A stretch of 64,000 nt of DNA from Myxococcales bacterium. GTDB taxonomy: Bacteria; Myxococcota; Kuafuiibacteriia; Kuafuiibacteriales; Kuafuiibacteriaceae. Positions 23,254 through 48,299 of the stretch are shown here, piece after piece. Under the pieces are notes generated by a model. The model was not told the origin of the DNA. It was given only the letters and a program-made list of their open reading frames with translations, and made no database searches. The stretch covers positions 1,142 through 65,141 of the forward strand of contig JAHQVK010000123.1 in NCBI GenBank assembly GCA_019634385.1, read 5' to 3'. The first letter of the stretch is position 1. Every line of letters begins with the position of its first letter. A program made the translations under genes and the position numbers.

Positions 23254-23432
23254 CTAGCAGGCCATCGGAAAAGTGAGTTAAGCGCTTCGCGGGTCCTTTT
23301 TCCGTGGAAGGTCTGGACTGGCTTCGCCTTTCATCGGTTGCATACGCCCGCTATGCGCCCTCTTCATCCAGAGCGTTCCACGGAAAAGATACTTCGCGGA
23401 TCACCCATCCCACTTTTCCGATGGCCTGCTAG
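23254..23432. mobile_element. Family-B palindromic repeat element, copy B1
   Basis: ctagcaggccatcggaaaagtg ... cacttttccgatggcctgctag, with perfect 22-bp inverted ends. It is homologous to copies at 41046 and 48121. Confidence 0.85.
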
Positions 23433-23769
23433 TGGACAAGGATTGGTATTGCTCTGTGAATGATAAGCCTCTTGGGGGACAGCTGATAGACAACAGATTC
23501 AGCAGGAAGGTTATGCCCAGCCTCGTCGTCGGAGCGTTTCACGCAAAGCCGGGCTCGATAGCCACACACATGGCTAAATCAACCGGCTGCTAGGGAGCGT
23601 CATGAATGTTGGCATGGAGCTATTGTGAAGTATCTGGTTTGACCGAATGTAATGGTAGCGATTGCCTAGCTGACCGAGAGCTCCCGATAAGCGAGTCACC
23701 GAGAGCTCAACGGGGCCTTCAGGCAAATCACTGACGACTCATAGACCGAGTTCTATGTTAAAGATATGC

Positions 23770-23838
23770 CCAGGAAAGAGGAAAGGGTAGAGGACCCTAG
23801 CTTTTGGGCGCGAGTCCTCTAATTTCCGTAGAGCGACC
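23770..23838 (-). terminator. Putative groEL terminator hairpin
   Basis: The inverted repeat gaggaccctagcttttgggcgcgagtcctc lies immediately 3' of the groEL stop. The downstream minus-strand stretch TACCCTTTCCTCTTTCC is pyrimidine-rich but not a clean U-tract. Confidence 0.3.
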
Positions 23839-23841
23839 GCT

Positions 23842-25488
23842 TTAGAAGCCCATGCCACCCATGCCACCCATGCCACCCATATCAGGAGCAGGAGGTGCAG
23901 CAGGCTCATCCTTCTTGGGCTTCTCAGCGACCAAAGCTTCAGTGGTGAGAAGCAGGGAGGCTACGGAAGCAGCATTTTCCAAAGCGGTGCGTACGACCTT
24001 CGTGGGGTCAATGACACCAGCCTTGATGAGGTCTTCGTATTTTTCGGTGGCTGCATTGAAACCGAATGCCTGAGTGCCTTCAGCTACCCGGTTAAGAACC
24101 ACAGAACCTTCCTGACCAGCGTTGATCGAAATTTGGCGTAGAGGCTCTTCGCATGCGCGGAAGAGCAAGCTCACACCAGCGTTCTGTCCGTCGGTGAGTT
24201 TTGGTTGTTTGAGGGTATTACGGGCTCGGACGAGCGCAACTCCGCCCCCAGGAACAATACCTTCTTCACGAGCAGCTCGAGTTGCGTACATAGCGTCTTC
24301 AACACGAGCCTTCTTTTCCTTCATTTCGATTTCGGTAGCAGCGCCAACGTTGATTACGGCAACGCCCCCTACGAGCTTAGCCAGACGTTCTTGCAGCTTT
24401 TCCCGGTCGTAGTCAGAAGAGGTCTCTTCGATCTGAGCCTTAATCTGCTTGATGCGAGCCTGGAGTTCATCAGCGCCACCAGCTCCGTCGACAAGGGTTG
24501 TGTTGTCCTTATCGATAGTAACGCGCTTAGCGGTACCGAGATCCTTCAGTGTGATGTTCTCAAGCTTGATTCCGAGGTCTTCTGAGATAACTTGGCCACC
24601 GGTAAGGATTGCAATGTCCTCGAGCATTGCCTTACGTCGGTCACCAAAGCCAGGTGCTTTAACTGCAGCAACCTGAAGAGTTCCTCGAAGTTTGTTTACT
24701 ACGAGGGTAGCGAGTGCTTCTCCTTCAATATCTTCAGCAATAATAAGAAGAGGCCGACTGCTTTTTGCTACCTGCTCAAGGATAGGTAGCAGGTCTTTCA
24801 TATTAGATACCTTCTTCTCGTTCAAAAGAATGAAGGGATCTTCCAGAACTACTTCCATTCGCTCGCCGTCGGTTACGAAGTATGGAGATAAATAACCGCG
24901 GTCAAACTGCATACCTTCGACAAAGTCGAGATTGGTATCGAGCGACTTGGCTTCTTCTACGGTGATTACCCCATCCTTACCCACTTTGTCCATCGCATCA
25001 GCGATGATTTCACCGATGGTGGTATCTCCATTGGCGGAGATCGTTCCAACCGCAGCGATGTCTTGCTTAGTCTTACATTCCTGAGCGAGCTTGTGGAGCT
25101 CGCCAGTGACCTGTCGGACACCCCATTCGATTCCTCGTTTGAGTTCCATGGGGTCGTGACCAGCAGCCACCAGTTTCAGACCCTCTGCGAAAATAGCTTG
25201 GGCAAGTACGGTTGCGGTGGTTGTTCCGTCACCAGCTTTATCAGAGGTTTTGGAAGCAACTTCCTTAACCATCTGAGCGCCCATGTTTTCGAACTTGTTA
25301 TCGAGCTCGATCTCTTTGGCAACGGAAACACCGTCTTTCGTAACGAGGGGTGCGCCAAATGATTTTTCGATAACAACGTTTCGACCTTTGGGGCCGAGGG
25401 TGACTTTCACTGCATTTGCGAGTGCGTTGACGCCACGGGCTATTTCCTGCCGGGCGTGCATATCAAAGTGGATTTCTTTAGCTGCCAT
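23842..25488 (-). CDS. groL: Chaperonin GroEL (60 kDa)
   Basis: The N-terminus [27 protein letters not shown].., the C-terminal GGM repeat tail (..[13 protein letters not shown]) and the position downstream of groES all fit GroEL. Confidence 0.95.
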
Positions 25489-25599
25489 TTGCTTGGGTCT
25501 CCTTAAATTGCAAGGTATCTGACGTGGTTATAAGAACCGAAAGTATCTATCCAGACCAAGCTGCAGTAAGCACCCGCTCTGGATACTCCGCTGAGCACT

Positions 25600-46920: not shown

Positions 46921-47392
46921 TGGACCAAAATCCACGTGGGCAGATTGCCTTATTCGTACGCTTTTTAAAGTTGGTCACCCAGTGTACAGAAGGTTAAAAC
47001 CCTTCCTGTTTCCTATAACCCGCGGATCATGCCTGGCCATTTGGTGTCAAGGGCAGGTATTGGTCATAAAAAATTCCTACCTTCCATATTACTCTTTTCC
47101 AGGAGGTGGCATCGCCCCGGGTGAACAACCGCTGGTGGCGGCCGTTCGTGAATGTTTCGAGGAAGTAGGTATTCGGACTGCACCGGAGCACGTTAAACTC
47201 GACTTTGTGGAGGAGCTGCGATGGAAAAACACCCTGGATACGGTGTGGGTCTATCACGTCCGCCTCGAGAAGTGGCCAGATGTGCGTATCGACAATCGAG
47301 AAGTTATTTCTGCGTCTTTCATGGACCCATCAACGGCGTTGCGACATCGGCTGTTTCCGCCGGTCCGAAAGCACATTGAGCGCCGCGTGTAG
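46895..47392 (+). CDS. NUDIX hydrolase
   Basis: The Nudix box is ..FPGGGIAPGEQPLVAAVRECFEEVGI.. Start uncertain. Confidence 0.65.
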   Translation: MPIVDTKNDGPKSTWADCLIRTLFKVGHPVYRRLKPFLFPITRGSCLAIWCQGQVLVIKNSYLPYYSFPGGGIAPGEQPLVAAVRECFEEVGIRTAPEHVKLDFVEELRWKNTLDTVWVYHVRLEKWPDVRIDNREVISASFMDPSTALRHRLFPPVRKHIERRV

Positions 47393-47425
47393 TTACCGGC
47401 TGCATTATCAGAGGTCGTTTTAGTT

Positions 47426-47800
47426 ATGGATAGTAGTATTTTCGCGCGGCGACGCTTCATGATCCTCTCCGGGGTGCTGTTAAACGGCGTGCTAGCCCTG
47501 ACTACGGCGTGGATGGTAGAATCAGACCGTCCCACAATTGAAGCCTCATTTGCGTCTGGTTTGCCGTCCGATATGTTGGTCATCCGAAATCAACAAGCAA
47601 AAACGAAGGTGGAACTTGTGTTGGACAACCGATACGTCCTACGGCTCGCTGAGTTCAGTGCGGGCATGCACGGAATTGATGTTCAGCAAGCATTTCGGGA
47701 CAAAGAGCACCTGACCCCAGACTCGGGATATGTACCTCGACATCTACGAATAATATTTCAGGATGGGGAAGAAGAAATAGTGGTTCAAGAGGAGCCCTGA
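47426..47800 (+). CDS. Hypothetical small exported protein
   Basis: An N-terminal signal/TM segment (RRRFMILSGVLLNGVLALTTAWM) is followed by an acidic C-terminus. Confidence 0.35.
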   Translation: MDSSIFARRRFMILSGVLLNGVLALTTAWMVESDRPTIEASFASGLPSDMLVIRNQQAKTKVELVLDNRYVLRLAEFSAGMHGIDVQQAFRDKEHLTPDSGYVPRHLRIIFQDGEEEIVVQEEP

Positions 47801-48120
47801 CAGCTGGTTGATTTGGCGGCGTGGTTATAAGTTGACGGTTGGCTTCCGCGGGACGCGAATTAAAGAATTTCGGGCGTATACTGGCGATCAACGGTGCAGG
47901 AGACCAGAAATCCCGCCGGATGGTTGTTGGCCAAACCAACCGGCTACTATTGGGGTGTAGGCTTGTTAGTTGCGCATCCTAGGTGTGTTGCTCTTTGCGC
48001 CAAAGAACTATCGCGAACAGCCAGGAGAACCGGAATATTTTGTTTCGGGGGAGGTTCGTCTCAGCTAGCGGAGGAGATTCGGGGGGGACCGTGTTACCGG
48101 GCATTCTGGTACTTGATGAA

Positions 48121-48299
48121 CTAGCAGGCCATCGGAAAAGTGAGATGGGTGATCCGCGAAGTATCTTTTCCGCGGACCGCTCCGGATGAAGAGGGCGCAT
48201 ACCGGGCGTATGCAACCGATGAAAGGCGAAGCCGGTCCAGACCTTCCCCGGAAAAAGGGCGAGCGAAGCGCCTAACTCACTTTTCCGGTGGCCTGCTAG
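48121..48299. mobile_element. Family-B element, copy B3 (orientation as B2)
   Basis: ctagcaggccatcggaaaagtgagatgggtgatccgcgaag ... cacttttccggtggcctgctag. Its terminal CTAG is shared with A8. Confidence 0.85.

What the first reader, a model, noticed from the sequence alone, without database searches (positions are those of the whole stretch)
23254..48299. Second foldback family (B, about 180 bp, ends CTAGCAGGCCATCGGAAAAGTG) always adjacent to family A and twice fused to it through a shared CTAG
The three B copies (23254, 41046, 48121) have perfect 22-bp inverted ends and a palindromic body. Each lies within 120 bp of an A copy. In two of three cases (41222-41225 and 48296-48299) the last four bases of B (CTAG) are simultaneously the first four of A, giving ...cctgctagggcgtg.... 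This recurrent B-to-A junction suggests one of three things. Either both families use the same CTAG target and one preferentially inserts into the terminal CTAG of the other, or a composite B+A unit is itself mobile, or a shared transposase recognises both kinds of end.
Basis: seen in the sequence. Interest (0 to 1): 0.6.

Follow-up and report, generated by a model that had tools for sequence, protein, structure and literature searches.

The report
Small transposon family sharing CTAG targets
Family B is a 179-bp non-coding mobile element with inverted-repeat ends, a MITE, that lands in the sequence CTAG; it sits against the older family A because every A copy carries CTAG at each end, which is an ordinary nested-transposon pattern and not a new composite element.

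Summary
The three B copies are real: 23254-23432, 41037-41215 and 48121-48299. Each is 179 bp, they are 92-97% identical, and they have 22-nt inverted ends. Only one of the two fusions to A goes through a true CTAG (48296-48299). The other lies at 41212-41215, not 41222-41225, and reads CTGG.

The window comes from a Myxococcales MAG. About 75%-identical, same-length B relatives occur in other high-GC Myxococcota-type sequences, always bounded by CTAG or a one-off variant and never next to an A-like element. One relative sits in frame inside a DUF4336 gene. A 98%-identical strain lacks exactly that 174-nt insertion, so the family is mobile.

The two A copies fused to B lie in opposite orientations. 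A copies are old (about 70-85% identical) and B copies are young. A moving B+A unit is therefore rejected.

A ends supply 9 of the 42 intergenic CTAG sites. Random choice among those sites gives at least 2 of 3 B copies on an A end with P = 0.11.

Best reading: B and A are independent CTAG-targeting MITEs, and B inserted into the CTAG that A regenerates at its ends. The transposase and the duplication length (TA or CTAG) are unknown. Ordinary biology; a new member of a known kind.

The parts
23254..23432 (-). B1. A 179-bp B copy, inverted relative to B2 and B3, with CTAG at both ends.
41037..41215 (+). B2. A 179-bp B copy. The left end is CTAG and the right end is CTGG (one substitution).
48121..48299 (+). 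B3. A 179-bp B copy with CTAG at both ends and one mismatch in the right terminal repeat.
41212..41215 (.). Tetramer shared by B2 and A7. It reads CTGG, a degenerate CTAG.
48296..48299 (.). CTAG shared by B3 and A9.
23023..23211 (-). A3. An A copy whose Y end, the end facing B1 about 43 bp away, is degenerate (TGGTTTGG... instead of CTAGGGCG...).
40743..40929 (-). A6. A full A copy 107 bp left of B2. Its X end carries CTAGCTAG (40739-40746).
41212..41400 (-). A7. An A copy fused to B2 by its X end.
41560..41650 (-). A8h. A half copy of A (Y half) in the same intergenic cluster.
48296..48683 (+). A9. An A copy fused to B3 by its Y end. It is interrupted by a unique insert of about 190 bp at about 48393-48583.
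8916..9105 (+). A1. A full A copy with no B nearby. CTAGCTAG sits at its Y end (8912-8919).
12635..12823 (+). A2. A full A copy with no B nearby. A family C copy lies 74 bp away.
31383..31570 (-). A4. A full A copy with no B nearby. CTAGCTAG sits at its X end (31379-31386).
36111..36202 (+). A5h. A half copy of A (Y half), directly abutted by a family C copy (36008-36110).

Best explanation
B is a miniature inverted-repeat transposable element (MITE). It is 179 bp long, non-coding, folds back on itself, and has 21-22-nt terminal inverted repeats. A transposase encoded elsewhere moves it. It inserts at the palindrome CTAG and duplicates either the whole CTAG (as IS5-type elements do) or its central TA (as IS630/Tc1-type elements do); the sequence outcome is the same in both cases. 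Every insertion therefore leaves a CTAG at each end of the element.

Family A is an older, unrelated MITE with the same CTAG-bounded ends. Each A copy thus offers two ready CTAG targets in DNA where an insertion does no harm. B landed in such a terminal CTAG at least twice in this window, giving B-CTAG-A with one shared tetramer, and once in a free CTAG 43 bp from an A.

What is shown: the element's anatomy; CTAG at both ends of every copy in three sequence sources; mobility, from an empty site; the independence of B from A; and the younger age of B.

What is inferred: the cut-and-paste DDE mechanism, the identity of the transposase, the length of the duplication, and the order of events (A first, then B).
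For: Anatomy and copies.

Source: the window is a 68,567-bp contig of an NCBI MAG named 'Myxococcales bacterium', with locus tags KTR25_.

Relatives: a six-frame peptide query built from B found ORFs that read through B-like elements in other high-GC sequences. DNA profile searches of those contigs gave 8 further full-length copies of 178 bp: L010:10487-10664, L011:241-418 and 1751-1928, L012:6842-7019 and 10629-10806, L015:10861-11038, L016/L017:10014-10191, and L014:9948-10125. They are 73-78% identical to the window copies and 94-100% identical to each other. All are bounded by CTAG or a one-off variant.

Mobility: the L010 copy sits in frame inside a DUF4336 gene (P0017). P0019 from an ENA assembly is 98% identical and has exactly the 176 aa predicted after removing the element. 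The DNA flanks are 98.2% identical. The filled site reads ...CCCG CCAG[170 nt]CTAG ATCAG... and the empty site reads ...CCCG CTCG AGCAG..., a net 174-nt insertion.

Independence from A: the A profile finds nothing in L010-L017. No other dispersed repeat flanks the copies in L010-L012. A7 and A9 are fused in opposite orientations. A copies are about 70-85% identical and B copies 92-97%.

Null model: 42 intergenic CTAG sites existed before insertion and 9 were A ends. P(at least 2 of 3 on an A end) = 0.11, and P(all 3 within 50 bp of an A) = 0.049.

More junctions in the same MAG: P0149, on another contig, reads from an A X end straight into B. P0150 reads an internally deleted mini-B inside an A.

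Precedent: IS5 duplicates YTAR, most often CTAG (PMC5493358). IS630 inserts at the TA within CTAG (Tenzen and Ohtsubo 1991, as cited in PMC2170065). Mobile elements that preferentially sit in other mobile elements are documented (PMC3119063).
Against: No transposase with matching ends was found. None appears among 30 window ORFs scanned against Pfam, nor in the gene lists of the related contigs.

The duplication length is unresolved. No copy has the same non-CTAG tetramer on both sides.

The empty site reads CTCG, not CTAG. The 6 nt at the junction carry 2 differences, against 1.8% in the flanks. That allele could therefore be a repaired excision site and not a never-occupied one.

The foldback is kept by compensatory changes well inside the terminal repeats: 8 of 62 pairs, and 96% of cells paired against 33-40% in the slid-partner controls. 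A conserved asymmetric apex with two small hairpins is also kept. A plain MITE model does not require either feature.

No empty site could be obtained for the three window copies themselves.

A genome-wide census of B in this MAG could not be made.
Confidence: 0.75

Rival explanations
1. Active targeting. B prefers the ends of A, or its foldback or cruciform DNA, beyond simple CTAG recognition. B inserts and excises there repeatedly, and each excision leaves a CTAGCTAG scar.
For: In the window, 3 of 3 B copies lie within 50 bp of an A (P = 0.049), and 2 of 3 lie on an A end (P = 0.11 among intergenic CTAGs; P = 0.008 among all 161 CTAGs). Two more B-in-A or B-at-A junctions occur on other contigs (P0149 and P0150). 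CTAGCTAG occurs only 3 times in 64 kb, each time at the outer edge of an A copy. That 8-mer is what would remain after excision of an element with a 4-bp CTAG duplication. It is also what an IS630-type 2-nt staggered cut would leave for an element that starts and ends with GC, as B does. IS5 insertion is known to depend on local DNA structure as well as on the tetramer (PMC5493358).
Against: The window statistics are marginal. The extra junctions were found by searching for A, so they are biased towards A. B relatives in other genomes insert at CTAG sites with no A. L018 shows a B end flanked by non-A sequence. Selection against insertions in regulatory intergenic DNA would produce the same clustering without any targeting.
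Confidence: 0.2
2. A composite B+A unit is itself the mobile element.
For: A direct B-A fusion recurs. There are two in the window and one more on another contig, P0149, with the same B-right-end to A-X-end arrangement as B2/A7.
Against: A is fused by opposite ends at B2 and B3. The A parts are as diverged as random A pairs: P0149's A part is 65% identical to A7 at the peptide level, and the window A copies are about 75-80% identical, while the B parts are 92-97%. B1 is not fused. B relatives occur alone. No shared outer duplication is seen.
Confidence: 0.03
3. One transposase, or two close paralogues, mobilises both A and B. The shared CTAG reflects a single enzyme.
For: Both families are foldbacks of about 180-190 bp bounded by CTAG. 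Both carry a GGCGAAGCC mini-hairpin.
Against: The terminal repeats share no similarity after CTAG. The ages of the two families differ. B exists without A in other genomes. Several unrelated IS families share CTAG or TA targets (PMC5493358; PMC2170065).
Confidence: 0.08
4. B is primarily a structured RNA or single-stranded-DNA functional element, such as a regulatory RNA or a terminator-like hairpin, and not a transposon.
For: The fold is very stable (z = -10.7). The structure is conserved, with compensatory changes between lineages and one within the high-GC clade. A strand-asymmetric apex is conserved across sequences about 75% identical.
Against: There is no Rfam match, even at E <= 1. A presence/absence polymorphism exists inside a coding gene. 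Orientation relative to neighbouring genes is inconsistent: B1 and B3 are sense and B2 is antisense. Copies sit inside called ORFs in the high-GC genomes. Structure conservation rests on effectively two lineages.
Confidence: 0.05

Closest known systems
Bacterial MITEs derived from IS5-family elements (4-bp YTAR, usually CTAG, target duplication)
   Same: Small and non-coding. Terminal inverted repeats. CTAG on both sides. Multiple near-identical intergenic copies. Presence/absence polymorphism.
   Different: No parent IS is identified. If CTAG is the duplication, B's ends start CAGG, not the GG or GA typical of IS5-family ends (from my own knowledge of ISfinder, not tested here). The 4-bp duplication is not proven.
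IS630/Tc1-mariner-derived MITEs (TA duplication, with IS630 preferring the TA inside CTAG)
   Same: The pattern C-TA-[G...C]-TA-G fits every copy. An element that starts and ends with GC would leave CTAGCTAG after a 2-nt staggered excision, and that 8-mer is seen at three A ends.
   Different: The TA-only duplication is not demonstrated. No IS630-type transposase was found. Strict use of CTAG in all 11 copies is tighter than the usual preference for TA alone.
Nested or clustered small mobile repeats, for example in Haloquadratum walsbyi, where most MITEs and small mobile repeats sit inside other mobile elements (PMC3119063)
   Same: One non-autonomous family is repeatedly found in or against another, and the repeat clusters lie in a few intergenic regions.
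   Different: Here the contact is at the shared terminal target tetramer, and a simple target-availability null explains most of it.
Structured foldback MITEs such as Correia/NEMIS or ERIC elements (from my own knowledge)
   Same: Length of 100-200 bp, long hairpin potential, terminal repeats, and a TA-containing target.
   Different: No sequence similarity. A different phylum (Myxococcota). No evidence here for transcription or RNase processing.

Membership tests
MITE (non-autonomous DNA transposon) | Short (under about 500 bp) with no coding capacity for a transposase | tested here: met
   The element is 178-179 bp. Only chance ORFs of 59 aa or fewer lie inside it.
MITE (non-autonomous DNA transposon) | Terminal inverted repeats | tested here: met
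   The repeats are 21-22 nt and perfect or one-off in all copies.
MITE (non-autonomous DNA transposon) | Several dispersed, near-identical copies | tested here: met
   There are 3 copies in the window at 92-97% identity. At least 3 more traces occur in the same MAG (P0149, P0150, and the end of L018). There are 8 full copies in other sequences.
MITE (non-autonomous DNA transposon) | Target-site duplication flanking the element | tested here: inconclusive
   CTAG or a one-off variant lies on both sides of all 11 copies, and one CTAG-like tetramer lies at the empty site. Whether 2 or 4 nt are duplicated, or whether one CTAG belongs to the element, cannot be separated.
MITE (non-autonomous DNA transposon) | Insertion polymorphism (filled and empty sites) | tested here: met
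   L010 is filled and L013 is empty, with 98% identical flanks and a 174-nt net insertion. This was shown for a relative, not for the window copies.
MITE (non-autonomous DNA transposon) | A cognate autonomous IS with matching terminal repeats | not testable with these tools
   No transposase was found in the window or the related loci. Plasmid and viral searches were negative.
IS5-family derivative | 4-bp YTAR duplication | tested here: inconclusive
   The data are compatible with it (PMC5493358), but no copy has a matching non-CTAG tetramer on both sides.
IS630/Tc1-mariner derivative | TA duplication, with IS630 preferring the TA inside CTAG | tested here: inconclusive
   The data are compatible with it (PMC2170065 citing Tenzen and Ohtsubo 1991). 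The back-translated P0150 junction hints at TA outside the CTAG, but it is peptide-derived.
IS200/IS605-type palindrome-associated element (PATE) | No terminal inverted repeats; separate subterminal hairpins at each end; no duplication | tested here: not met
   B has perfect 21-22-nt terminal inverted repeats that reach the ends, and it folds as one hairpin.
Any curated RNA family (Rfam 15) | Covariance-model match | tested here: not met
   There was no hit at the gathering threshold over the window, and none at E <= 1 over 40700-41900.
Composite transposon (B+A as one unit) | Fixed internal arrangement and co-divergence of both parts | tested here: not met
   The A copies are in opposite orientations at the two fusions, and the divergence of A and B is discordant.

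The most novel reading that the evidence does not exclude
B is not a passive MITE. It is a structurally constrained foldback element whose long hairpin and conserved asymmetric apex are needed for its movement or for a host function. It homes preferentially to the ends or centre of other foldback repeats such as A, cycling in and out and leaving CTAGCTAG scars. Repeat clusters in this genome would then be built by element-on-element targeting and not by chance.
Probability: 0.15. Interest if true: 0.5.

Novelty: new member of a known kind. Interest (0 to 1): 0.3.

Why it matters
The result explains a striking local pattern, two repeat families fused through a shared CTAG, by a simple and known mechanism. 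It documents what appears to be an undescribed MITE family shared by distant Myxococcota lineages, with a clean filled/empty site pair. This has three practical uses. Assembly breaks occur at these repeats. Spurious ORFs that read through the repeats are annotated in the MAGs. A parent transposase could be found from the terminal repeats. It does not change current understanding of transposition.

Tried and rejected
1. Exact-match scans with the B terminal repeat. The scans of genome contigs, metagenome contigs and viral contigs gave only single chance matches inside coding sequence. Relatives carry GGAGAAGT instead of GGAAAAGT, so this pattern missed them.

2. blastn of both B variants against plasmids gave only chance-level hits, with E >= 0.1.

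3. Viral scans with the relatives' repeat and with the A repeat gave nothing.

The word-index protein search is not exhaustive: it missed P0149, which contains 48 aa of B.

5. Fetching other contigs of this MAG through its A-derived ORFs failed. P0149 is not on record and the look-up was counted. Only a 2.4-kb Logan contig was retrievable.

6. Literature searches for myxobacterial MITEs and for the repeat sequence itself found nothing relevant.

7. Retron, IS110 bridge-RNA and REP/RAYT readings were considered and dropped. There is no reverse transcriptase or recombinase nearby. B has perfect terminal inverted repeats, a CTAG head and not a GTAG head, and a length of 179 bp.

8. tRNA origin of family C: ARAGORN and Rfam find only the tRNA-Gly at 2883-2955.
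Full report
OBSERVATION

The sequence at the stated places was read directly. The 22-mer CTAGCAGGCCATCGGAAAAGTG occurs six times in the window with at most one mismatch. None is expected in 100 shuffles. The six sites are the two ends of three 179-bp elements:
- B1, 23254-23432
- B2, 41037-41215
- B3, 48121-48299

B1 is inverted relative to B2 and B3 (I1 and I2). Pairwise identity is 97% (B1/B2), 93% (B1/B3) and 92% (B2/B3). B2 folds into one long imperfect hairpin at -101.8 kcal/mol, z = -10.7; the other strand gives -91 kcal/mol.

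- The second copy starts at 41037, not 41046.
- Two of the six ends carry one substitution.
- The B2/A overlap is at 41212-41215 and reads CTGG, not CTAG. The string cctgctagggcgtg exists only at B3.

FAMILY A AND THE CLUSTERS

A profile built from four A copies finds nine copies or half copies:
- A1, 8916-9105, + strand
- A2, 12635-12823, + strand
- A3, 23023-23211, - strand
- A4, 31383-31570, - strand
- A5h, 36111-36202, + strand, half copy
- A6, 40743-40929, - strand
- A7, 41212-41400, - strand
- A8h, 41560-41650, - strand, half copy
- A9, 48296-48683, + strand, split by a unique insert of about 190 bp

A has two distinguishable halves, called Y and X here, behind a common terminal repeat, CTAG GGCGTGTCTTTAAaCTCCGG. 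A copies are only about 70-85% identical to each other, so they are much older than the B copies.

B2 is fused to the X end of A7. B3 is fused to the Y end of A9. The two fused A copies are therefore in opposite orientations relative to B. B1 lies about 43 bp from the degenerate Y end of A3.

A third repeat, family C, shares the same clusters. It is about 105 nt long and lies at 12456-12560, 36008-36112 and 41734-41838.

The surrounding genes are ordinary chromosomal genes: groEL, recA, carAB, aat, comM-like, Ser/Thr kinases and TPR proteins. No transposase was found among the 30 ORFs scanned against Pfam.

SOURCE

Exact protein look-ups place the window on a 68,567-bp contig of an NCBI MAG named 'Myxococcales bacterium', locus tags KTR25_. 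Its proteins have no relative above 90% identity in the protein collection. The same DNA appears as an 18-kb Logan contig of SRR12681089 that starts exactly where A9 ends, so short-read assembly breaks at these repeats.

IS B FOUND ELSEWHERE?

Exact scans with the window's terminal repeat gave only chance matches in coding sequence.

I then translated B in six frames and searched the protein collection for ORFs that read through such elements. Six proteins matched. Their contigs carry eight full-length B-like elements of 178 bp, plus truncated ones. The contigs are:
- L010, from NCBI MAG GCA_020632995.1, named 'Deltaproteobacteria bacterium'
- L011, L012, L015 and L016, from JGI sample 3300056827
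- L014 and L017, from JGI sample 3300055001

The three loci measured (L010-L012) have about 72-73% G+C.

These elements are 94-100% identical to each other and 73-78% identical to the window copies. They have the same length and the same left/right asymmetry. Each is bounded by CTAG or a one-off variant (CCAG, CTTG, CTGG or CGAG). This holds even though CTAG is rare there: L010 has 2 CTAG in 20.7 kb, and one of them is the element's end.

None of these loci contains an A-like element. No other dispersed repeat flanks the B-like copies in L010-L012. B therefore exists independently of A.

MOBILITY

The L010 copy lies inside the called gene P0017, a DUF4336 protein, and is read through in frame. 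Removing the element and one tetramer predicts a 176-aa protein.

A search with that reconstruction returned P0019 from an ENA assembly. P0019 is 176 aa long, 98% identical and covers 100% of the query. Its contig, L013, matches the L010 flanks at 98.2% on both sides.

The filled site reads ...GACCGCCCG CCAG[170 nt]CTAG ATCAGCTC.... The empty site reads ...GACCGCCCG CTCG AGCAGCTC.... This is a clean presence/absence polymorphism of 174 nt net, with a single CTAG-like tetramer at the empty site.

One caveat applies. The six junction bases differ at two positions, against 1.8% in the flanks. The empty allele might therefore be a repaired excision site.

WHY B TOUCHES A

An element that duplicates CTAG, or the TA within CTAG while itself starting with G and ending with C, recreates CTAG at both ends. 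A copies therefore offer CTAG targets in dispensable DNA.

In the window, 13.9% of bases are intergenic and hold 44 CTAG. Before the B insertions that is 42 sites, of which 9 are A ends and 16 lie within 50 bp of an A. The probabilities for random choice among these sites are as follows:

| Outcome | P |
|---|---|
| At least 2 of 3 B copies on an A end, among intergenic CTAGs | 0.11 |
| All 3 within 50 bp of an A | 0.049 |
| At least 2 of 3 on an A end, if coding CTAGs also count | 0.008 |

Insertions in coding sequence would mostly be lost, so the coding-inclusive figure overstates the case. The adjacency is thus largely what shared target specificity plus tolerance of insertions predicts.

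A moving B+A composite is excluded for three reasons. The fused A copies are in opposite orientations. The A and B parts have diverged to different degrees. B relatives occur alone.

A shared transposase has no support, because the repeats differ completely after CTAG, but it cannot be excluded.

MORE OF THE SAME GENOME

A profile of A-derived peptides was searched against 1.84 billion representative proteins. It returned 20 short ORFs, all from this MAG and on at least 17 other contigs.
- P0149 reads from the X end of an A directly into B (…GNKSERGPEVKDRP|LAGHRKSELGASRVLFPWNV…). This is the same arrangement as B2/A7, but its A part is only 65% identical to A7.
- P0150 reads an A Y half, then SRPSEK-GPAKRLTHFSDGLL, then the A centre. 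The middle part is best explained as a B that lost its interior between the two CGGAAAAG motifs. This is a mini-B nested in an A.
- P0143 reads family C followed by A.
- A Logan contig, L018, starts inside a B right end whose flank is not A. An A half copy lies 203 bp further on.

These extra junctions were found through A, so they are biased towards A. They show that the association recurs, but they cannot measure it.

STRUCTURE

On ten distinct copies, 96.3% of cells in a 62-pair foldback model are paired, against 33-40% when the pairing partners are slid. Eight pairs show compensatory changes, and the covariation score is 0.129 against 0.085 in shuffles (0 of 500). One compensatory change lies within the high-GC clade (T47/A134 to C/G in L014).

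The apex is asymmetric and conserved. It holds a 6-bp hairpin, GCATAC...GTATGC in the window and GCGTAT...ATACGC in L011, which is two compensatory changes read. It also holds an invariant GGCGAAGCC hairpin.

The sample amounts to about two lineages, and the structure was derived from these sequences, so this is suggestive only. There is no Rfam match.

COMPARISON WITH KNOWN SYSTEMS

IS5 duplicates YTAR, most often CTAG (PMC5493358). IS630 inserts at the TA within CTAG (Tenzen and Ohtsubo 1991, cited in PMC2170065). Mobile elements that sit in other mobile elements are well documented (PMC3119063).

B meets the MITE criteria except for an identified parent IS. The superfamily and the duplication length remain open.

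VERDICT

B is a new member of a known kind, a CTAG-targeting foldback MITE family of Myxococcota. Its fusion to A is a by-product of shared target choice.

The open points are:
- the transposase;
- whether TA or CTAG is duplicated;
- whether the three CTAGCTAG motifs, all at A ends, are excision scars;
- whether the conserved hairpin has a role.

Noticed in passing
window 8912-8919, 31379-31386, 40739-40746: CTAGCTAG occurs only three times in the 64-kb window, each time at the outer edge of an A copy: the Y end of A1 and the X ends of A4 and A6. About 0.4 occurrences are expected from the CTAG frequency. These may be excision footprints of a CTAG- or TA-duplicating element such as B.
   Followed up: partly
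window 12456-12560 (-), 36008-36112 (+), 41734-41838 (+): A third repeat family, C, is about 105 nt long, 82-90% identical between copies, and has three predicted hairpins. It is always in the same intergenic clusters as A. One copy abuts A5h directly at 36110/36111. P0143, from another contig of the MAG, also reads C followed by A. It is not a tRNA and has no Rfam hit.
   Followed up: partly
window 48393-48583: The A9 copy is split by a GC-rich insert of about 190 bp. The insert has no other copy in the window and no CTAG at its edges.
   Followed up: partly
L018:59-90, and proteins P0142, P0145, P0153, P0157 and P0160 (other contigs of the same MAG): Five A-derived ORFs start with MRAGLDQ(Q/P)AAR or a close variant. 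This implies a conserved module of about 30 nt (ATGCGTGCGGGGCTAGATCAGCAGGCTG). In four of the five (P0142, P0145, P0153, P0160) it is joined to the A Y end through CTAG. Its last roughly 10 nt resemble the B right tip. In L018, the locus of P0157, the module occurs without an adjacent A end.
   Followed up: no
L011:1676-1928: In a JGI contig, a B-like copy truncated after position 76 is followed at once by a full copy, overlapping it by one base. A second full copy at 241-418 is 100% identical.
   Followed up: no
L010:10487-10664 against L013:~1000: The B-like insertion in the DUF4336 gene adds exactly 58 codons with no stop, so the host ORF stays open. The six bases at the junction differ at two positions between the filled and empty alleles, although the flanks are 98.2% identical.
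   Followed up: partly
window: A copies (e.g. 9030-9045) and B copies (e.g. 41141-41149): Both families contain the same GGCGAAGCC mini-hairpin, and it is invariant in all B-like copies from other genomes. B also carries CCGCGAAG in direct orientation on both arms.
   Followed up: no
window 15778-16017: A tandem array with a 30-nt period (at least 8 units) lies inside the 1257-aa TPR protein gene at 14718-18491.
   Followed up: no
window 646-1704 (-): An Mrr-type restriction endonuclease gene lies in the 64% G+C first 2 kb of the window, against about 53% for the rest. A tRNA-Gly(CCC) gene follows at 2883-2955. This may be the edge of an island.
   Followed up: no
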